The notes under the pieces: model-generated
What the model saw: only the letters and a program-made list of their open reading frames with translations
The model's database searches: none
Told to the model about the DNA's origin: nothing
NCBI GenBank assembly: GCA_014727915.1
Contig: WJMO01000006.1
Location: 130,137-194,136 of the forward strand
DNA from: Candidatus Altiarchaeales archaeon
GTDB taxonomy: Archaea; Altiarchaeota; Altiarchaeia; IMC4; SCGC-AAA252-I15
DNA length: 64,000 nucleotides
Reading direction: 5' to 3'
In this document: positions 51,008 through 56,924 of the stretch, one piece after another
How positions within the stretch are numbered: the stretch's first letter is position 1
Layout of the letters: each line of letters begins with the position of its first letter
Translations under genes and position numbers: made by a program

Positions 51008-51685
51008 TCAGACTATCTTCCCGTCGACTATCTGTATCTTCTGCCTGGCGTTCTTGGCTATCTTCGAGTCGTGGGTGACTATCACCAAGGTCTTGCCCTC
51101 TTCCTCGTTCAACCTCTTCAGCAGGCCCATGATTGTCTTCCCGGTATTCTGGTCCAGGTTCCCGGTGGGCTCGTCGGCGAGTATAATCTGGGGATCGTTA
51201 GCCAGGCTTCTAGCTACCGCGACCCTCTGCTGCTGTCCGCCGCTCAGCTCCGACGGCCTGTTGCCCGCCTTGTCGGAGAGGCCGACCAGCTCGATTATCT
51301 CCTCTACTTTACTATTCCGCACGGGTTTTGGTGTGCCCTTGAATCTCATGGGGAGTTCGATGTTCTCGGCTGCGCTCATCGTCGGGATGAGGTTGAACTG
51401 CTGGAAAACGAACCCCAGCTTCTCCCTCCTCAACCTGGCCTTCTGAACTCCGTTCAACCCGCTTATGCCAACGTCCTCGATGTAGACCTCCCCCCGTGTG
51501 GGGGTGTCCAGGCAGCTTATCAGATTCAGCAAGGTGGATTTGCCAGAGCCTGAAGGTCCGATTATGCTAGCGAACTCCCCCAACTCAATCGTCAAGTCCA
51601 CTCCGTTCAATGCCCTGCATTCGTTAGGCTCGCCCTCGTTGTATATCTTGAACAAACCCACACAGCGTATTTCCCCGTTACTCAT
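51008..51685 (-). CDS. ABC transporter ATP-binding protein (MacB/LolD-like)
   Basis: Walker A GPSGSGKST, signature LSGGQQQR, Walker B ILADEPTGNLD. Confidence 0.9.
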   Translation of the reverse strand: MSNGEIRCVGLFKIYNEGEPNECRALNGVDLTIELGEFASIIGPSGSGKSTLLNLISCLDTPTRGEVYIEDVGISGLNGVQKARLRREKLGFVFQQFNLIPTMSAAENIELPMRFKGTPKPVRNSKVEEIIELVGLSDKAGNRPSELSGGQQQRVAVARSLANDPQIILADEPTGNLDQNTGKTIMGLLKRLNEEEGKTLVIVTHDSKIAKNARQKIQIVDGKIV

Positions 51686-52847
51686 AGCGCAACACCTCTA
51701 TAGGATCGAGCCTCGAAGCAGCCCATGCAGGATATAAGCCTGCCCCCATCCCTAGTATGAGGGAGAATGCGAATCCTATGGCGATGAGCTCAGGGCTTAA
51801 TATGGGGGTGAATGACGTGTGGGATTTCACCAGTTCACTGGCTCCATATCCGAGCATGAACCCGATGAACCCGCCTATGAGGCTCAACACCGCGGACTCC
51901 TCCAATACCTGCATGAGTATGTTGGTTGTGGTGGCGCCGATGGCCTTCATCACCCCAATCTCCCGCCTGCGTTCCATGACGCTCATGATCATCGTGTTCA
52001 TTATGCCAATGCCACCCACGATAATGGACACAGCGCCGATGCCGTAGACTGCCATCGTTATGGTGCCCAACGTGCTCTCCAAGCTCCGGACCAACGTAAT
52101 AGCAGAGAAAGCCCGGACCGTGTCGAACATGTCGCTTATCTCCTGTTGGATAGGTTCTACATTCTCGACCTCGTCCACCTTCACCTTTAACTGGGTTATC
52201 TTGTCGTCGTCTTCCAAATCCTGCATGGTTGAAAGGGGGACGAAAGCCGCCTCGTCAATTGTTGAGTCCCCGGTCTCCTCCAGGATGCCCACGACTTCGA
52301 AGTGGAAGCTATCGGTGGTGTCGTTCTCGACCCGCTGGTACTCTATCTCGTCGCCGACGTTGTACAGTTGGTTGTAGGCGGTCGTGGATCCCAGGAGCAC
52401 CACATACTGGAAGTCGTCTGATACATCAAGTTTACGACCGTCATCTGCGACTATGTTCTCGCCTATCAGGTAGTCCTGGTCTTCAGGGTTCAAGGCCGTG
52501 AACTCCAGGGTGCTGGATGAGCCGCCCATCATCCGACCCATCATCCCCCCAAAGCCTCTGTGGCCCCCGCGGCTTATCCGGTATTCGCCGATTGCCACAA
52601 CGTCCGTTACGCCTGTTATGTCCCGTATGTCCTGTATCATGTCCTCGGTTATACCGTCCTCGCTCTCGAAGTCGCGGACGTCGATGACGGCCGCCATGTC
52701 ACCGAAGGAATCCTGTATCTGCTTGTTCAACCCCTCACCTATGGCTCCGAGGGTGAGTATCAAACCTATGCCCATGGCTATGCCCAGCATGGTCAATATG
52801 CTGCGGGACTTCTGCCTGAAGACGTTCTTAAACGCGATGTCAAGCAT
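51678..52847 (-). CDS. ABC transporter permease, FtsX/MacB-type
   Basis: N-terminal TM, large extracytoplasmic domain, C-terminal 3-TM FtsX-like bundle; start probably ATG 52847. Confidence 0.8.
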   Translation of the reverse strand: MLDIAFKNVFRQKSRSILTMLGIAMGIGLILTLGAIGEGLNKQIQDSFGDMAAVIDVRDFESEDGITEDMIQDIRDITGVTDVVAIGEYRISRGGHRGFGGMMGRMMGGSSSTLEFTALNPEDQDYLIGENIVADDGRKLDVSDDFQYVVLLGSTTAYNQLYNVGDEIEYQRVENDTTDSFHFEVVGILEETGDSTIDEAAFVPLSTMQDLEDDDKITQLKVKVDEVENVEPIQQEISDMFDTVRAFSAITLVRSLESTLGTITMAVYGIGAVSIIVGGIGIMNTMIMSVMERRREIGVMKAIGATTTNILMQVLEESAVLSLIGGFIGFMLGYGASELVKSHTSFTPILSPELIAIGFAFSLILGMGAGLYPAWAASRLDPIEVLRYE

Positions 52848-52848
52848 C

Positions 52849-54531
52849 TTACTTCTTCTTACGCCTCTTGTAGAGCTTGTAACCGCCAACAACCACAACC
52901 AAGACTATAACTGCCTTCATTAACAGGGCTGCCAGCCCAGAACCAGAATTCCTATTTGAAGAGCCCGTGAAAGAGGACATCGCAGTTGAAGAACCACCCC
53001 CAAGGTTGAAGGTTTCCACCTGGGTGACTCTCTCACCGTTCAATCCAGCATACTCCAACGTCAAAGTGAACGGGCCGGACACGGTAGTGTCGAAGGTGAA
53101 GGTCGTCTGCTTCGTAGGCTTGATGTCCGACTTGTAGGAGACAATCTCCTGGCTTCCGGTTTGAGCGTATGCGGAAGTCCCACTATCAGACGTTGATTGC
53201 CTGGCACCTCCGCTGGGCCGGACCATACCCCTGCCAGACAACATGGACACCGGATTAGACTGCCTCTGGCTCGCCCTGTTTTCCCAGGCCTCATCCGTGG
53301 ACTGGGTGCTACGGTCAAACGTCCGGTTACCCAGGTCCGACGTCTTTACAGTGGCCTTGACTCCCTCCGCAGCCCGGGTGCCAATGTTAGCGACTTCTAT
53401 GCGGAGCGAACCACGCTCCTGATCGACGTTTATCACCTCCAATATGACCTGCCCCGACACATCCAATCCGATGCTCTTCTCATCCGTGTACGAAGTGCCC
53501 CCGACCGTATAGTCTATCGTCAAGGGTATCGCATAGGTTTGAATCTCAGCATCCCATGAGATGGATATCTCAAACTCTGTCTGCACATCCTCGCCGGACT
53601 CGACCGTGCCTATGTGCTTCTCCGCAGTGTCAACTGGGACGAAAGGCTCGGACAGTGTCAGGCTTGCCGTGACATCATCAGCGGCCGCAGCCCCATAGTT
53701 CTTCAAACCCATCTTCAATTCTACCGTCTCTCCCGGACCTGTCGGCTCGTAGCTGACGTTCAAAACCTTGAAGTCAATGCCCGCACTCTCAACGTTCAAG
53801 CCGAAGGACATGTTTCTGGAGGCTGAAGTGCCGGACTCGTCCGTGTAGTCTATCTTCAAAGAGACCATGCACGCCCCCTCAGCAGAAGGCTTTATCTGGT
53901 AGCCCAATGTGAAATCATCGCCTTCCTCAATGTCTCCTATGTACTTTCTGGATGAGCCTATAACGGTGAGGCAGTCAGACGATAGCGTGGCTTCCAGGTC
54001 CTCCACCGAGGAGCGCAACGTACCTTCCAGGACCAGGTCTCCGAGCGTGTCCTTATAGTATGTGGTCTTCTCCGGGTTCAACTGGAAGAGTGGGTTACCG
54101 TATATCCGCAGGGGCACGTCCCATGTGGTGAGCAGGTTGTTCACCGAAGTCCCATCGTATTTGAAACCGTCATATGATATGCGAACGTTAATCGCTGTCA
54201 AACCCGTCTTCGCTCCCTCCTTTACCCTCACAACTACGGGCACGGTCTTGGACTGCTCCGGGTCGACCCTGCCTATGTAGAATTTCTTGTCGACACTCAC
54301 GACACCAGTGCTTGGAATGTATACTTCAACGTCGTCAGCGCGAAACCCGCCAGTGTTCTCAATGGCAAGGTTGAGTATGCCACTGTCACCAGGCCTGAGA
54401 TTAGAGTCATAGTATGTCGAGTCGAAGTCAACGACCACGTTAGTTGGTGAGGTCGTGCCTGCAGTAGCAGCCAAGACACCATCTGAAAAAATGCAAAGGA
54501 ACACCATCAACAACAAAATCCTTTTCACCAT
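52849..54531 (-). CDS. Secreted surface-layer-like beta-repeat protein with C-terminal TM anchor (partner of FtsX/ABC pair)
   Basis: Signal peptide; repeated beta-rich modules; C-terminal TM + KKRRKK stop-transfer. Confidence 0.65.
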   Translation of the reverse strand: MVKRILLLMVFLCIFSDGVLAATAGTTSPTNVVVDFDSTYYDSNLRPGDSGILNLAIENTGGFRADDVEVYIPSTGVVSVDKKFYIGRVDPEQSKTVPVVVRVKEGAKTGLTAINVRISYDGFKYDGTSVNNLLTTWDVPLRIYGNPLFQLNPEKTTYYKDTLGDLVLEGTLRSSVEDLEATLSSDCLTVIGSSRKYIGDIEEGDDFTLGYQIKPSAEGACMVSLKIDYTDESGTSASRNMSFGLNVESAGIDFKVLNVSYEPTGPGETVELKMGLKNYGAAAADDVTASLTLSEPFVPVDTAEKHIGTVESGEDVQTEFEISISWDAEIQTYAIPLTIDYTVGGTSYTDEKSIGLDVSGQVILEVINVDQERGSLRIEVANIGTRAAEGVKATVKTSDLGNRTFDRSTQSTDEAWENRASQRQSNPVSMLSGRGMVRPSGGARQSTSDSGTSAYAQTGSQEIVSYKSDIKPTKQTTFTFDTTVSGPFTLTLEYAGLNGERVTQVETFNLGGGSSTAMSSFTGSSNRNSGSGLAALLMKAVIVLVVVVGGYKLYKRRKKK

Positions 54532-54586
54532 ATTTTTTCACCTTATTATCCTGAATATCAAGAATACACATCCTTAAATATAATAC

Positions 54587-54636
54587 TGAAACAGGGGATA
54601 TCCCAGCGTGAAACACCTGTAGCAGAATGTGAAACA
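54587..54636 (+). promoter_or_regulatory. Triple TGAAACA direct-repeat array (R1), upstream of surface-protein/ABC operon
   Basis: TGAAACA at 54587, 54609, 54630 (spacing 22, 21); TATA-like ttaaatataat adjacent. Confidence 0.55.
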
Positions 54637-54701
54637 TGGGTTTGGGAGGCTTCCCGGGTCGGATTAGAGTGGGAAGCCTCCGTTGTGGTGGCTGCAGTGA
54701 G

Positions 54702-55211
54702 CTATTGTTTAGTTCCTGCCGGTTGGCCTTCTGCAAAAGGGCATCCACCGCCCCGCATACCCCTACCAGGAAATCCACCCCCCATCTTCCCGGGGCATTT
54801 ATCCGGGTTCTCCTGGCAGTAGGCATGGTGGGCCTCCATTATCTCCTCGTGTGTGGCGTCCTCGCCGAGGCCGAGCTTGGATAGCATCTCACTGTGCCTT
54901 TCCTCCATCTCCTGGTGGCGTTCCTCCATACGGGCCTTCACTGCAATATGGAACTCCCCTATCGTATCGTCCTCGGTCAGGCCGAGGTCGGATAGTCTCT
55001 TCTCCCACATGGCTTCTCTTATCTCTTCTCTCGTAGCATCTTCCGTAAGCCCGAGCTCCTCCAGGTTCACAGGCTCATGTCCTTTCATAAACCCGTGTCT
55101 GGAGAATCCCTTGCTTCCCCCTGCCGCTTCCGTTGCGTTGACGGCCACCACCAGTCCTAGGACCAGCAGTGCTGCCAAGCCAGCGGCAAACAGTTTGGTT
55201 TTACCATCCAC
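54702..55211 (-). CDS. Secreted protein with three LGLTED(A/D)T..EEI repeats and Gly-rich tail
   Basis: Signal peptide; GTG start preceded by GAGGTGA. Confidence 0.5.
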   Translation of the reverse strand: MDGKTKLFAAGLAALLVLGLVVAVNATEAAGGSKGFSRHGFMKGHEPVNLEELGLTEDATREEIREAMWEKRLSDLGLTEDDTIGEFHIAVKARMEERHQEMEERHSEMLSKLGLGEDATHEEIMEAHHAYCQENPDKCPGKMGGGFPGRGMRGGGCPFAEGQPAGTKQ

Positions 55212-55239
55212 TTTGGTTCACCTCGAAGGATTCATTGGA

Positions 55240-55289
55240 TGAAACAGGGCATAAGTTTGGATGAAACAGTTGTGGCAGAAGATGAAACA
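55240..55289 (+). promoter_or_regulatory. Triple TGAAACA direct-repeat array (R2)
   Basis: TGAAACA at 55240, 55262, 55283 (spacing 22, 21), 30-80 nt upstream of GTG 55211. Confidence 0.55.
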
Positions 55290-55294
55290 TGACT

Positions 55295-55705
55295 TTAAAG
55301 CTTCAGCTTGACGAGGTTGGTGTTTCCCAGGGGCTTCTTCTCAACGACACCCCGTTGCTCCAGCTTGGACAGGACCCTTGAGACCTTCACCTTGGATATT
55401 CCGGTCTCTGCAACGAGGTACATCTGCTCCATCTTGCCCTCCTTCAACAGCACCTCTATTATCTTCCGCTCCTCAGCGGGCAATACCTTCAGCATCGAGT
55501 AGGCCTGCCTCTGGGTCACCTTCCACTGGAACATTAGTATTATCAGAGCTCCAACACCCATGGAGACAGCTGTCACCCCGTAGACCACCACAGGCATGGA
55601 CGAGCCGGTGTCTTCAATGTAGGACCCGTTAAGTATGGACAGTAGTATCCCCAAGCCGAACACTGACGTTAATGCTATCGCTAACCGCTTCTCCGAGACT
55701 TCCAT
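55295..55705 (-). CDS. Two-TM membrane-anchored wHTH regulator (paralog family)
   Basis: Two TM helices then wHTH (ETGISKVKVSRVLSKLEQRGVVEKK). Confidence 0.55.
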   Translation of the reverse strand: MEVSEKRLAIALTSVFGLGILLSILNGSYIEDTGSSMPVVVYGVTAVSMGVGALIILMFQWKVTQRQAYSMLKVLPAEERKIIEVLLKEGKMEQMYLVAETGISKVKVSRVLSKLEQRGVVEKKPLGNTNLVKLKL

Positions 55706-55708
55706 CTT

Positions 55709-55987
55709 CTATCCGCCTATGTCCTCCTTCATCTCAAGGTATGTTTTCTTGTCTATCTCCCCTGACACATACCGTTTCTTCAGCACGTCCAATGGTGTTT
55801 CAACCCTGCGGGAGCCGCGTACAAGCCACCAGAATATGAGGGCAACGACCACCACTATGACGAGATTCCACACCATGAAGGTCGGAACCAATCCGAATAT
55901 GGGCTCACGACCCAGGAAAGGATGCGGCGCCCTGCATGTGGAGAACATTGCGGCCCTGCCGCCGAACTCGGCAAAAGTCTGGTTCAT
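55709..55987 (-). CDS. SHOCT-domain small membrane protein
   Basis: TM helix followed by LKKRYVSGEIDKKTYLEMKEDI; real start may be an internal Met. Confidence 0.45.
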   Translation of the reverse strand: MNQTFAEFGGRAAMFSTCRAPHPFLGREPIFGLVPTFMVWNLVIVVVVALIFWWLVRGSRRVETPLDVLKKRYVSGEIDKKTYLEMKEDIGG

Positions 55988-56023
55988 AAGAATATCACCT
56001 CAGTACTATACAACTAATAAGAA

Positions 56024-56073
56024 TAAAAAAGGGTGAAACAGGCGATATCCAGGGTTGAAACAGCCGTATCAAA
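56024..56073 (+). promoter_or_regulatory. Triple TGAAACA direct-repeat array (R3), divergent intergenic region
   Basis: TGAAACA at 56024, 56046, 56067 (spacing 22, 21); first unit plus GATATCC flank near-identical to R1. Confidence 0.55.
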
Positions 56074-56135
56074 AAATGAAACACTGATAGGTTTTTATAG
56101 ATTTGCAGTCAAATAAGAAGGCGTGGAGGTCACAT

Positions 56136-56924
56136 ATGGACTTCATAGTATTATCGGTTTCGGGTTTTTTGATAGGGGCTTTAGGCACGATAATAGGCTC
56201 GGGAGGGGGTTTTCTTGTAGTCCCACTGCTTCTCCTGCTAACCGACCTCTCACCCCAGGTTATCGCGGGGACCTCCTTGACAGTGGCTTTGTTCACATCC
56301 CTGTCGGGTTTTGTCGCATATCACAGGCAGAGGAAGATCGACTACCTTGTCGCGGGAGTATTTGTCCTAGCTCTGATACCGGCGACTTTCATCGGCGTGG
56401 AAGTAAACCAGAGGATAGAAGCGGACCAGTTCAGGATGATACTGGGGGTCCTGCTGGTGATGATCTCAACCCTGCTATTCAAGAGGGTCAACATCCGGAT
56501 ACCGCATTATATCCCCTACCCCATCCACTATGACCGGGAGAAGACGGACAGCCAGGGAGTCACATACAAGTATCACGTGAGCATGAGGAGGGGGGCGCTC
56601 ATGAGCTTCGTTATCGGGGTGGTCTCGCCGGTTGTGGGCATCGGCGGAGGAGTCCTCAGGACGCCTGCGATGGTCGTTTTGGAAGGCATGCCAGCCCGTA
56701 TCGCAGCGCCAACAAGCCAGGTAACGACGATATTCGGGGGTGCGATTGCAGTGGCGTTGTTCGCCATGAAATCCCAGATCAACATATCATATGCCATACC
56801 GCTTATAGTGGGGGTGATAGTGGGGGCGCAGGTTGGAGCCCTATTCTCAGAGAGATACGGGCTTATGGTCCGGAAGATTACCTCAGCCGCCCTTTTCATA
56901 ACTGGGCTCTGGCTGCTGCTGTAG
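56136..56924 (+). CDS. TauE/SafE-family (DUF81) anion exporter
   Basis: Two repeated halves each with Gly-rich motif; start probably ATG 56136. Confidence 0.7.
   Translation: MDFIVLSVSGFLIGALGTIIGSGGGFLVVPLLLLLTDLSPQVIAGTSLTVALFTSLSGFVAYHRQRKIDYLVAGVFVLALIPATFIGVEVNQRIEADQFRMILGVLLVMISTLLFKRVNIRIPHYIPYPIHYDREKTDSQGVTYKYHVSMRRGALMSFVIGVVSPVVGIGGGVLRTPAMVVLEGMPARIAAPTSQVTTIFGGAIAVALFAMKSQINISYAIPLIVGVIVGAQVGALFSERYGLMVRKITSAALFITGLWLLL

What the first reader, a model, noticed from the sequence alone, without database searches (positions are those of the whole stretch)
54587..56073. Three intergenic regions each carry a triple TGAAACA direct-repeat array with identical 22/21-bp spacing
R1 (54587/54609/54630), R2 (55240/55262/55283) and R3 (56024/56046/56067) have the same architecture. 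R1 and R3 also share the flank TGAAACAGG(G/C)GATATCC. A two-helical-turn spacing is typical of cooperative transcription-factor binding, and the arrays bracket the gene for a membrane wHTH regulator (55295..55705). I did not see the motif in other intergenic regions I inspected.
Basis: seen in the sequence. Interest (0 to 1): 0.8.

Follow-up and report, generated by a model that had tools for sequence, protein, structure and literature searches.

The report
Conserved operator arrays for membrane-anchored regulator
Three 50-bp promoter elements, each with three phased TGTTTCA repeats, mark a small conserved gene cluster in an Altiarchaeota genome and are most likely the docking sites of the cluster's own membrane-anchored DNA-binding protein, an uncharacterised regulator family that sits next to the same repeat in two other archaeal phyla.

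Summary
A weight matrix built only from other genomes scores them 54-65 bits, against -8.5 for the next best site in 64 kb.

Each array is a 50-52-bp conserved block. It sits in fixed orientation directly upstream of one of three transcription units:
- a SHOCT membrane protein plus the 2-TM winged-helix regulator (Pfam DUF7343);
- a small secreted repeat protein;
- a CARDB protein plus a MacB-type permease and ABC ATPase.

The same arrays, with invariant spacing, precede the same units across Altiarchaeota (about 30 distinct versions). In a 1.56-Mb contig the strict pattern occurs only at this locus.

Distant DUF7343 regulators in Nitrososphaerota and Bathyarchaeota also sit next to GTTTCA repeat clusters spaced at whole helical turns. 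Their recognition helix and GNTN wing are conserved.

Best reading: these are operator/promoter arrays of a locally acting, autoregulated, membrane-tethered one-component regulator. Binding, the direction of control and the signal are inferred, not shown. It is a new variant of a known kind, of moderate-to-good interest.

The parts
56034..56083 (-). Array R3: TGTTTCA x3 at offsets 0, 21 and 43 in gene sense. It lies upstream of the SHOCT-regulator operon, so it is the autoregulatory site. It sits in a divergent region shared with a TauE gene.
   Evidence: weight-matrix score 65.2 bits. An array occupies the same position in L001, L005, L081, L140 and L146; in L155 it lies about 150 nt upstream of the SHOCT gene.
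55240..55289 (-). Array R2: starts 5 nt after the regulator's stop codon and ends 28 nt before the GTG start of the 169-aa secreted repeat protein.
   Evidence: 58.7 bits. The same placement is seen in L001, L128, L132, L139, L141, L143 and L146.
54587..54636 (-). Array R1: lies 55 nt upstream of the ATG of the CARDB - MacB permease - ABC ATPase operon.
   Evidence: 54.0 bits. The same unit is preceded by arrays in L070, L126, L130, L132, L134, L135, L137 and L138.
54618..54624 (-). Degenerate fourth heptamer (TGnnACA; TGCTACA here), 12 bp after repeat 1. The equivalents in R2 and R3 are at 55271-55277 and 56065-56071.
   Evidence: In the logo, T12, G13, A16, C17 and G19 are conserved in 27-30 of 30 arrays; A16, C17 and G19 were not part of any search pattern, whereas T12-G13 were fixed in the metagenome scan. 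Coordinates.
54596..54603 (-). Internal purine-run + WTWW element (GGATATCC) between repeats 2 and 3. It is either a weak BRE/TATA or a degenerate half-site at +12. The equivalents are at 55250-55257 (AACTTATG) and 56043-56050 (GGATATCG).
   Evidence: Logo positions 32-38. T36 is present in 30/30 arrays and positions 35, 37 and 38 are A/T only. Coordinates.
54574..54584 (-). Consensus-like TATA box (ATTATATTTAA), 2 nt after the last heptamer of R1. R3 has TTTTTTATT at 56022-56030, 3 nt after its last heptamer.
   Evidence: Other TATA-like boxes in the window for comparison.
55295..55705 (-). Regulator, 136 aa: an N-terminal two-helix membrane hairpin with a short conserved outer loop (NGxYIEDTG), then a C-terminal winged helix (DUF7343).
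   Evidence: Pfam PF24034, E 1.8e-15, 56.9 bits against a cut-off of 27.6. Hydropathy segments 6-28 and 37-61. AF2 model with pLDDT 76: helices 2-33 and 39-59, then a wHTH. Homologues are 64-81% identical across Altiarchaeota.
55709..55987 (-). 92-aa single-pass membrane protein with a C-terminal SHOCT domain. Its stop lies 3 nt before the regulator's ATG, so the two are presumably co-transcribed.
   Evidence: PF09851, E 9.1e-5. TM segment 28-60. It is always adjacent to the regulator in Altiarchaeota loci.
54702..55211 (-). 169-aa secreted or anchored protein with three LGLTED..EEI repeats and a Cys/Gly/Met-rich tail.
   Evidence: Only sub-threshold hits: Spy E 0.006 and DnaJ E 0.005. Orthologues are preceded by arrays in most loci.
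52849..54531 (-). 560-aa CARDB/NEW3-domain surface protein with a signal peptide and a C-terminal anchor.
   Evidence: PF07705 and PF10633. TM segments 1-26 and 528-554.
51678..52847 (-). MacB/FtsX-type ABC permease.
   Evidence: PF12704 and PF02687. Start position.
51008..51685 (-). ABC transporter ATPase.
   Evidence: PF00005, E 1.1e-35.
54645..54681 (-). Hairpin with an 11-bp stem, between the stop of the 169-aa gene and R1. It is a likely terminator or insulator that would make R1 an independent promoter.
   Evidence: RNA fold -24 kcal/mol, z = -5.2, 0 of 200 shuffles as stable. Coordinates.

Best explanation
The three arrays are the cis-regulatory operators of a small, self-contained regulon in an Altiarchaeota genome. 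Each is a 50-52-bp block with the consensus nGTTTCA-nTTTyTGnnACAGn-TGTTTCA-nnnnARgWTATnGCC-TGTTTCA-nC. It amounts to three tandem units of about 21.5 bp. Each unit has a strong heptamer and a weaker half-site 12 bp downstream. All strong sites therefore lie on one face of the helix.

The arrays are bound (inferred) by several copies of the 136-aa DUF7343 protein encoded between them. This protein has a two-helix membrane hairpin joined by a short linker to a winged helix. Because it is tethered to the membrane, it can approach DNA from one side only. That would explain the strict whole-turn phasing and the invariant spacing.

The arrays sit at the core promoters. A heptamer ends 2-3 bp before a consensus TATA box at the regulator's own operon (R3) and at the CARDB-MacB-ABC operon (R1). 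At the secreted-protein gene (R2), two heptamers flank a weak BRE/TATA-like element. Its distance to the start codon (about 41 nt) matches an SD-led promoter in this window.

Occupancy would thus control TFB/TBP recruitment at three promoters at once: the regulator's own operon (autoregulation), a secreted repeat protein, and an envelope ABC exporter.

The direction of control is unresolved. I lean slightly (about 55:45) towards signal-dependent activation. The signal is probably sensed in or at the membrane, through the conserved outer loop, the SHOCT partner or the transporter. In distant relatives a Met/Gly-rich outer loop and copper-gene neighbours point to metal sensing.

Shown here: the anatomy, the conservation, the restriction to this locus, and the co-occurrence with the regulator family. 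Inferred: binding, stoichiometry, TSS positions, direction of control and the signal.
For: Non-random and unique in the window.

Conserved element:
- 30 distinct arrays from Altiarchaeota all have 21/22-bp spacing, although +/-1 bp was allowed in the search.
- Positions never used in any search pattern are conserved (T8, A16, C17, G19, T36, W35/37/38, C51), while the flanks carry 0-0.3 bits.

Fixed orientation and targets:
- Wherever the contig extends far enough to identify it, the downstream gene belongs to the SHOCT-regulator operon, the LTED-type secreted protein, or the CARDB-MacB-ABC unit.
- 17 of 21 metagenome pattern hits lie next to recognisable cluster genes. Two are too close to a contig end to tell, and two are doubtful.

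Prediction test: in six loci fetched by the regulator protein alone (window, L001, L003, L005, L154, L155), an array precedes the regulator's operon in every case. This includes two loci where the transporter is elsewhere.

Local regulon: the 1.56-Mb contig Ga0315273_10000001 has only two strict matches, both at this locus.

The protein is a DNA binder in the membrane.

Co-conservation: the recognition helix SKVKVSR and the wing PLGNTNL are nearly invariant where the heptamer is invariant.

Cross-phylum link:
- DUF7343 homologues with 2 TM helices (hhalign probability 97%; E79, Q94, R110, R118 and G127-N128-x-N130 invariant) in Nitrososphaerota and Bathyarchaeota have GTTTCA clusters at 11-12 or 22-23-bp spacing in the adjacent intergenic region in 6 of 8 loci.
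- All 6 clusters of at least 3 GTTTC/GAAAC pentamers in those 59 kb lie at the regulator or at its neighbour's promoter. The background rate in the window is about 1 per 30 kb.

Not RNA: no Rfam hit, and the arrays do not fold better than shuffles (z = -0.75, +1.84, -0.26).

Promoter geometry.
Against: - No binding, expression or TSS data exist, so everything about function is inferred from position and conservation.
- Winged-helix proteins of the ArsR/MarR type usually bind palindromes as dimers, not direct repeats 21-22 bp apart.
- The heptamer and the recognition helix are both invariant, so no covariation test is possible within Altiarchaeota.
- The putative internal TATA has only four A/T positions. 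That is far weaker than other TATA boxes in the window. It may simply be a degenerate half-site.
- R2-type arrays begin 5-17 nt after the regulator's stop codon, so read-through transcription and a roadblock role cannot be excluded.
- Two remote loci (L147, L151) show no GTTTCA cluster.
- The genome-wide scan was strict (about 75% sensitive on independently found arrays) and covered one near-complete contig only.
- The genome-contig scan was truncated.
Confidence: 0.75

Rival explanations
1. The arrays are genuine transcription-factor sites, but for a different, unlinked regulator. The adjacent DUF7343 protein is only one of the regulated genes.
For: No binding data exist. Archaeal genomes encode many wHTH proteins. 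L001 carries a PadR gene at the end of the cluster.
Against: - An array precedes the regulator's operon in 6 of 6 protein-fetched loci, even when the transporter is elsewhere.
- The same GTTTCA core recurs next to distant DUF7343 homologues in two other phyla, where the neighbouring genes are otherwise different.
- The DNA-contacting residues are conserved across those phyla.
- The PadR neighbour is not conserved.
Confidence: 0.1
2. The arrays act at RNA level, as UGUUUCA repeats in 5' leaders or intercistronic spacers of a long SHOCT-regulator-secreted-protein transcript. They would be bound by an RNA-binding protein, or would control processing or translation.
For: - R2-type arrays start 5-17 nt after the regulator's stop codon and end 27-31 nt before the next start codon. 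They may therefore be transcribed by read-through.
- Their orientation is strictly that of the downstream gene.
Against: - There is no Rfam match.
- There is no stable or conserved fold (z between -0.75 and +1.84; R2 folds at 0 kcal/mol).
- Spacing is fixed at whole DNA helical turns: 21/22 bp here and 11-12 bp in remote loci.
- The linked protein has a DNA-binding winged helix.
- R1 is separated from the upstream gene by a strong hairpin and has its own consensus TATA.
- In L148, L152 and L153 the core also occurs as an inverted repeat, GAAAC-N-GTTTC, which is typical of DNA operators.
Confidence: 0.06
3. Same protein and same sites, but opposite logic to my lean. The regulator is a classical ArsR/MarR-like repressor that coats the promoter from about -63 to -14 and is released when it senses its signal.
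For: - The fold is closest to ArsR/MarR-type repressors: AntR, MarR, CadC(pI258) and SqrR.
- The best NCBIfam hit is the ArsR/SmtB metalloregulator model, though sub-threshold.
- At R1 and R3 the last heptamer ends 2-3 bp before a consensus TATA box, so it overlaps the BRE position.
- At R2-type promoters a heptamer would lie at about -20 to -14, between TATA and TSS.
- From background knowledge: MDR1 of Archaeoglobus represses its own ABC-transporter operon through three operators.
Against: - A heptamer just upstream of BRE/TATA is also the position used by the archaeal activators EarA and TFB-RF1 (PMC5512572, PMC5937170).
- The R2-type core promoter looks too weak to fire unaided.
- The known membrane-bound one-component regulators ArnR/ArnR1 (PMC6396743) and, from background knowledge, ToxR and CadC are activators.
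Confidence: 0.35
4. The arrays are copies of a dispersed or mobile repeat, or a chance tandem duplication without function.
For: TRF reports R3 as a two-copy 22-bp tandem repeat. A loose version of the pattern hits many unrelated repeats in Bacteroidales genomes and in CRISPR-like arrays.
Against: - There are only three copies in 64 kb, and all are at this cluster.
- The 1.56-Mb contig has only two strict matches, both at the locus.
- Position, orientation and spacing are conserved across regulators that are 64-81% identical, while the flanks are not conserved.
- The Bacteroidales hits have a different architecture and different taxa.
Confidence: 0.02

Closest known systems
ArnR / ArnR1 of Sulfolobus acidocaldarius (membrane-bound archaeal one-component regulators; PMC6396743)
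   Same: They are archaeal, membrane-anchored HTH transcription factors that oligomerise. They act directly at promoters of genes for cell-surface structures.
   Different: The domain order is reversed: N-terminal HTH and (from background knowledge) a HAMP domain, with C-terminal TM helices. They are controlled by phosphorylation and are unrelated in sequence. No DUF7343 domain is present. Neither a phased heptamer array nor an adjacent ABC exporter has been described for them.
ToxR / TcpP / CadC (bacterial membrane-bound one-component wHTH regulators; background knowledge)
   Same: A winged helix is tethered to the membrane and binds direct repeats on one DNA face at target promoters. The signal is sensed outside or within the membrane, with no phosphorelay.
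   Different: They are bacterial and work with sigma-70 RNA polymerase. They have an OmpR-type wHTH at the N-terminus, a single TM helix and a large periplasmic sensor domain. Here the order is a 2-TM hairpin followed by a C-terminal ArsR/MarR-like wHTH, and the outer loop is only about 10 residues long.
EarA (Methanococcus maripaludis) and TFB-RF1 (Pyrococcus furiosus), archaeal activators (PMC5512572, PMC5937170)
   Same: Short recognition sites lie immediately upstream of the BRE/TATA of weak promoters: four 6-bp sites for EarA. TFB-RF1 regulates its own region plus an ABC exporter operon.
   Different: Both are soluble proteins. The TFB-RF1 site is a palindrome (TCTG-N5-CAGA). Neither has 21/22-bp phased repeats, and neither has a site between TATA and TSS.
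BceRS-BceAB-type modules of Firmicutes (background knowledge)
   Same: A dedicated regulator is genetically coupled to a MacB/FtsX-type ABC transporter. The sensor has two TM helices and a minimal outer loop (intramembrane sensing), and it induces the transporter.
   Different: That is a two-component phosphorelay with a soluble response regulator. Here a single polypeptide would both sense and bind DNA. Any functional coupling to the transporter is pure speculation.
ArsR/SmtB and MarR families
   Same: The fold of the DNA-binding domain is closest to these (Foldseek: AntR, MarR, HpaR, CadC-pI258, SqrR). They include metal and stress sensors that control efflux genes and themselves.
   Different: Scores fall below the ArsR family cut-off (28.2 against 55 bits). 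The dimerisation helices of MarR and the metal sites of ArsR are absent. The protein is membrane-anchored, and its operators are direct repeats.

Membership tests
DUF7343 (Pfam PF24034) winged-helix family | Match to the Pfam model above the gathering score | tested here: met
   E 1.8e-15, 56.9 bits against a cut-off of 27.6, residues 78-134. The remote homologue in L010 also matches (E 1.8e-10).
DUF7343 2-TM subfamily (defined here) | N-terminal two-helix membrane hairpin, then a C-terminal wHTH with a conserved recognition helix (S-K/R-x-K-x-x-R) and a GNTN wing | tested here: met
   Hydropathy and AF2 model. Alignment A3 has E79, Q94, R110, R118, G127, N128 and N130 invariant. The profile search finds 620 50%-identity clusters at E <= 1e-10.
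MarR family | Pfam MarR/MarR_2 match above cut-off, and flanking N- and C-terminal dimerisation helices around the wHTH | tested here: not met
   MarR_2 is borderline (27.3 against 27 bits) and MarR scores 16.8 against 24.6. Residues 1-61 are membrane helices, and there is no C-terminal helix after the wing.
ArsR/SmtB metalloregulators | Family model above cut-off; a metal-binding alpha3N/alpha5 site | tested here: not met
   NF033788 scores 28.2 bits against a cut-off of 55; HTH_5 scores 18.9 against 22. No Cys/His site is visible in the wHTH.
ToxR-like membrane-bound regulators | N-terminal OmpR-type wHTH (Trans_reg_C), a single TM helix and a C-terminal periplasmic domain | tested here: not met
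   There is no Trans_reg_C hit. The topology is a 2-TM hairpin followed by a C-terminal wHTH.
Archaeal promoter-proximal operator / upstream activating site | Lies within about 100 bp upstream of the start codon, in fixed orientation and distance, and is conserved among orthologous loci while the flanks diverge | tested here: met
   The distance from repeat 3 to the start codon is 27-31 nt for most secreted-protein and CARDB-type promoters, and 40-55 nt where a TATA box follows the array.
Archaeal promoter-proximal operator / upstream activating site | Specific binding by the cognate regulator, and an effect on transcription | not testable with these tools
   This needs EMSA, footprinting, DAP-seq, in vitro transcription or expression data.
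Dispersed repeat / MITE / CRISPR array | Many copies at unrelated loci, or a long regular array with variable spacers | tested here: not met
   Three copies in 64 kb, all at the cluster. Two in a 1.56-Mb contig. Three units only; positions are conserved between genomes.
Structured cis-regulatory RNA (riboswitch, leader) | Match to a known RNA family, or a fold more stable than shuffled sequence | tested here: not met
   No Rfam match at E <= 1. z-scores are -0.75, +1.84 and -0.26.

The most novel reading that the evidence does not exclude
DUF7343 2-TM proteins form a pan-archaeal family of membrane-tethered one-component transcription factors, found in Altiarchaeota, Nitrososphaerota and Bathyarchaeota, with hundreds of sequence clusters. 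They would recognise a common GTTTCA core arranged at whole helical turns, so that a row of protomers anchored in the membrane plane binds one face of the promoter and physically docks target promoters of envelope genes to the membrane. The outer loop would be the sensor. It is Met/Gly-rich, and so probably binds Cu(I), in the thaumarchaeal and bathyarchaeal branch next to CopA, YHS and plastocyanin genes. In Altiarchaeota it is replaced by a short acidic loop that works with a SHOCT partner and/or the MacB-type exporter.
Probability: 0.4. Interest if true: 0.75.

Novelty: new variant of a known kind. Interest (0 to 1): 0.58.

Why it matters
Very few archaeal transcription factors have known operators, and membrane-bound ones are almost unstudied. 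ArnR/ArnR1 were the only examples I found in the searchable literature.

This work links an uncharacterised Pfam DUF family to a specific DNA word, a defined promoter architecture and a defined local regulon. That gives ready-made probes for EMSA or DAP-seq, and a testable rule: whole-turn phasing imposed by membrane tethering.

In Altiarchaeota, which are uncultivated and reported (from background knowledge) to have a double membrane, it identifies a regulated envelope module comprising a secreted repeat protein, a CARDB surface protein and a MacB-type exporter. In ammonia-oxidising and bathyarchaeal relatives it suggests a candidate extracytoplasmic copper sensor. I found no such sensor described.

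Tried and rejected
It was swamped by unrelated repeats in Bacteroides, Prevotella and Tannerella and by tandem or CRISPR-like repeats. It cannot be used for taxonomic distribution. It still yielded three Altiarchaeota loci (L069, L070, L081) and, by luck, the Nitrososphaerota locus L010.

2. L129 and L136 from the metagenome scan have no cluster genes and atypical sequence. I treated them as doubtful.

3. RNA-element hypothesis: there is no Rfam hit and no significant fold.

4. Literature: there is no paper on DUF7343. The promoter motifs reported for Cu-limited Nitrososphaera viennensis (TTCSGSMTTTGWACYANT and an A/T-rich motif) differ from GTTTCA. A search for TGTTTCA with archaea returned only unrelated papers.

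5. A PDB sequence search gave only weak MarR-like hits with E > 0.1.

6. I tried to derive a genome-wide promoter consensus from crude ORF calls in the window. It was too noisy, so only a few clear promoters (TauE and some leaderless genes) served as geometric references.

7. I looked for a fixed TATA box upstream of the arrays. There is none at a constant distance. The A/T-rich word before R2-type arrays is simply the regulator's last codons...CTGAAAATATAA.

8. I did not use the sigma-70 promoter scanner, because the organism is an archaeon.
Full report
OBSERVATION. TGAAACA occurs on the + strand at 54587/54609/54630, 55240/55262/55283 and 56034/56056/56077.
- R1 and R2 are as reported. R3 is real but lies 10 bp to the right of the reported coordinates, so the feature ends at 56083.
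- Spacing is 22 then 21 bp in each array.
- The heptamer is over-represented: 19 copies against 7.9 +/- 2.5 expected. The paired pattern with a 13-17-nt gap occurs six times, only in these arrays, and never in 100 shuffles.

ORGANISM AND GENES. The regulator protein is 100% identical to a hypothetical protein of a Candidatus Altiarchaeales MAG, on a 536,761-bp contig. All genes served by the arrays are on the minus strand, so in gene sense the motif is TGTTTCA. The units are listed below (Pfam, hydropathy).
- 55709-55987: a 92-aa single-pass membrane protein with a SHOCT domain.
- 55295-55705: a 136-aa protein with two N-terminal TM helices and a C-terminal winged helix (DUF7343, 56.9 bits against a cut-off of 27.6). 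It starts 3 nt after the SHOCT gene's stop.
- 54702-55211: a 169-aa secreted or anchored protein with three LGLTED..EEI repeats and a Cys/Gly/Met-rich tail.
- 52849-54531: a CARDB/NEW3 surface protein.
- 51678-52847: a MacB/FtsX permease.
- 51008-51685: an ABC ATPase.

R3 precedes the SHOCT-regulator operon, with 46 nt from the array to the ATG. R2 starts 5 nt after the regulator's stop and ends 28 nt before the GTG of the 169-aa gene. R1 ends 55 nt before the CARDB ATG. R1 is separated from the upstream gene by a strong hairpin (z = -5.2).

ANATOMY OF THE ELEMENT. Aligning the three arrays shows that they share far more than the heptamer. I built a logo from 30 distinct arrays, taken from the window plus related loci. 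It gives nGTTTCA-nTTTyTGnnACAGn-TGTTTCA-nnnnARgWTATnGCC-TGTTTCA-nC.
- Several positions were never part of any search pattern yet are strongly conserved: T8, A16, C17, G19, T36 (30/30), A/T-only at 35, 37 and 38, and C51.
- The 25 bp upstream and the sequence beyond +52 carry about 0-0.3 bits.
- The block is best described as three tandem units of 21-22 bp. Each has a strong heptamer and a progressively weaker half-site 12 bp downstream: TGTTACA-like in unit 1 and rGwTAT in unit 2.

CONSERVATION AND RESTRICTION.
- Loci fetched by the regulator protein alone (L001, L003, L005, L154, L155) all carry arrays. In all six such loci, counting the window, one array precedes the operon that encodes the regulator. 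This holds even in L154 and L155, where the transporter lies elsewhere. Those two arrays were predicted beforehand and score 67.7 and 61.7 bits.
- A strict 23-base pattern scan of JGI metagenomes returned 21 loci. Seventeen lie beside recognisable cluster genes, two are too close to a contig end to tell, and two are doubtful.
- Spacing was 21/22 in every array, although +/-1 bp was allowed.
- Orientation always matches the downstream gene. Wherever the contig extends far enough to identify it, that gene belongs to the SHOCT-regulator operon (sometimes led by the secreted repeat protein), the secreted repeat protein alone, or the CARDB-MacB-ABC unit.
- In the 1.56-Mb contig Ga0315273_10000001 the strict pattern occurs twice, both times at this locus.
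- In the window, a matrix trained only on foreign arrays scores R3/R2/R1 at 65/59/54 bits, with -8.5 for the next best site.

THE REGULATOR.
- Forty-one Altiarchaeota homologues are 64-81% identical and 136-138 aa long.
- Nearly invariant features are the N-terminus, the outer loop NGxYIEDTGxxxP, the LFQW end of TM2, the recognition helix (SKVKVSR) and the wing (KKPLGNTNL).
- The AF2 model (pLDDT 76) shows helices 2-33 and 39-59, followed by a canonical wHTH.
- Foldseek places the wHTH nearest to ArsR/MarR-type regulators: AntR, HpaR, MarR, CadC-pI258 and SqrR.
- It fails the family cut-offs for ArsR and MarR.
- No paper mentions DUF7343.

CROSS-PHYLUM LINK. The truncated genome scan happened to return a Nitrososphaerota contig, L010.
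- In L010, cGTTTCA-N4-TGTTTCA-N4-TGTTTCA-N16-TGTTTCA lies 27 nt upstream of a Met-rich plastocyanin gene (PF00127).
- That gene sits next to a 190-aa protein with two TM helices, a Met/Gly-rich outer loop and a DUF7343 wHTH.
- Profile comparison with the Altiarchaeota family gives 97% probability and 37% identity over the wHTH.

I then fetched seven further homologues of that protein. Five of them have GTTTCA clusters in the intergenic DNA flanking the regulator.
- L149 has four direct copies at 12/11/11 bp.
- L150, a Bathyarchaeota (MCG) genome, has TGTTTCA-N4-TGTTACA-N5-GTTTCA.
- L148, L152 and L153 have GAAAC-N-GTTTCA plus GTTTC-GTTTCA.

All six clusters of at least 3 GTTTC/GAAAC pentamers in these 59 kb are at the regulator or at its neighbour's promoter. 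The window background is about one per 30 kb.

The targets there are small secreted Gly/Met-rich proteins or cupredoxins. The neighbours include CopA-type ATPases, YHS, HMA and CDF genes.

Across both branches E79, Q94, R110, R118 and the G-N-x-N wing are invariant. The profile finds 620 50%-identity clusters at E <= 1e-10.

This recurrence of one DNA word beside one protein family, in otherwise different gene contexts, is the strongest argument that the adjacent regulator is the binding protein.

HOW IT PROBABLY WORKS (inferred). A wHTH held about 15 residues from a membrane hairpin can approach DNA from the membrane side only. Sites for several protomers must then lie on one helical face. 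That fits the observed spacing of 11-12 bp or 21-22 bp, and its invariance.

The promoter geometry differs by class.
- At R1, R3 and many CARDB or SHOCT-type arrays, a consensus-like TATA box begins 2-5 bp after the last heptamer. The whole array is then upstream, and the last heptamer overlaps or abuts the BRE position.
- At R2-type arrays there is no such box. The array-to-start distance is tightly fixed at 27-31 nt, with the SD starting 14-16 nt after repeat 3. The conserved internal purine-run + WTWW lies about 41 nt from the start codon. The clear SD-led TauE promoter in this window has its TATA centre at -40. Under this reading, two heptamers flank a weak TATA, at about -42..-36 and about -20..-14.

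In both classes a heptamer occupies the position just upstream of BRE/TATA. This is the position used by the archaeal activators EarA (four 6-bp sites; PMC5512572) and TFB-RF1 (PMC5937170). Overlap with the BRE and a site downstream of TATA are equally compatible with repression. I lean slightly towards signal-dependent activation, but I treat the direction of control as open.

The signal is unknown. The Altiarchaeota loop is short and acidic, so sensing may involve the SHOCT partner or the transporter. The Met-rich loops and copper-gene neighbours of the remote branch suggest metal sensing there.

RIVALS.
- Another regulator binding the arrays (about 0.1). This is disfavoured by the autoregulatory position and by the cross-phylum co-occurrence.
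- An RNA-level element (about 0.06). This is disfavoured by the lack of structure, by DNA-turn phasing, and by the inverted-repeat variants.
- A dispersed or mobile repeat (about 0.02). This is disfavoured by its restriction to this locus.

COMPARISON AND NOVELTY. The system works like membrane-bound one-component regulators (ToxR/CadC in bacteria, ArnR/ArnR1 in Sulfolobus; PMC6396743) and like archaeal promoter-proximal activators or repressors. It is a member of none of those families (see the membership table). The protein family is annotated only as a DUF, and I found no description of its operator. I class it as a new variant of a known kind: a transcription factor plus operator array, with an unusual membrane-tethered architecture and a conserved, phased direct-repeat operator that reaches across phyla.

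LIMITS. There are no experimental data. Only one near-complete genome was scanned, and with a strict pattern. TSS positions, stoichiometry, the direction of control and the signal are all inferred. The remote-branch sample is small (8 loci), and its first member was found through the motif itself. The other seven were fetched by protein alone.

Noticed in passing
window 54645-54681 (minus sense): A strong hairpin with an 11-bp stem (GGAGGCTTCCC-N15-GGGAAGCCTCC; -24 kcal/mol, z = -5.2) lies between the stop of the 169-aa secreted-protein gene and array R1. L001 has an analogous inverted repeat (GGACTTCCCACC...GGTGGGAAGTCC) after its orthologue. It is possibly a conserved terminator or insulator.
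   Followed up: partly
window 56090-56101 and 56136-56924 (+): R3 shares a divergent intergenic region with a TauE/SafE gene. The TauE TATA box (GGTTTTTATAGA) lies 6 bp from the outermost heptamer, so occupancy of R3 could also affect TauE. The TauE neighbour is not conserved in other Altiarchaeota loci.
   Followed up: partly
window 54702-55211 (-); L150 2910-3287 (-): The 169-aa array-controlled protein has three LGLTED(A/D)T..E(E/F)I repeats with sub-threshold similarity to the periplasmic chaperone Spy and to a J-domain helix, plus a Cys/Gly/Met-rich tail. The array-controlled 125-aa protein in a Bathyarchaeota locus has EEWYDEM repeats and a GYGRGCWGW tail. This may be a recurring class of small secreted acidic-repeat proteins.
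   Followed up: no
L010 2278-2850, L148 4001-4570, L149 4001-4561, L150 3427-3966, L152 3001-3597, L153 3001-3774: Remote DUF7343 regulators carry Met/Gly-rich outer loops (for example MMRNMMGGMEGM and MWGGMGSMMGG). They sit beside Met-rich cupredoxins, GGMMGG-rich secreted proteins, and CopA/YHS/HMA/CDF genes. This suggests an extracytoplasmic copper-sensing branch of the family.
   Followed up: partly
L148 4640-4680, L152 3660-3700, L149 3840-3880, L150 3290-3330: Downstream of the last GTTTCA in the remote loci there is a second conserved word: GAACTAcCATAACCCC in one set, and CTTAAGAC(y)CCATAACAC in another. Its role (core promoter or a second operator) is unknown.
   Followed up: no
L006-L125 (genome-contig scan): Many Bacteroides, Prevotella, Tannerella and Mediterranea genomes carry numerous dispersed copies of a GTTTC...TGTTTCA...TGTTTCA pattern, up to 20 loci per genome. 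This is evidently an unrelated dispersed repeat family.
   Followed up: no
L005 6420-7969: In one Altiarchaeota genome an extra ABC2-type transporter (ABC_tran + ABC2_membrane) directly follows the regulator in the same operon. The secreted protein and the CARDB-MacB units, each with its own array, lie 2-3 kb further on.
   Followed up: no
L069 and L070 (same MAG); L154; L155: In several Altiarchaeota genomes the regulator operon and the CARDB-MacB-ABC operon are unlinked. In the one MAG where both were seen (L069 and L070), each carries an array, so the regulon is held together by the motif rather than by gene adjacency. In L154 and L155 only the regulator operon and its array were examined.
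   Followed up: partly
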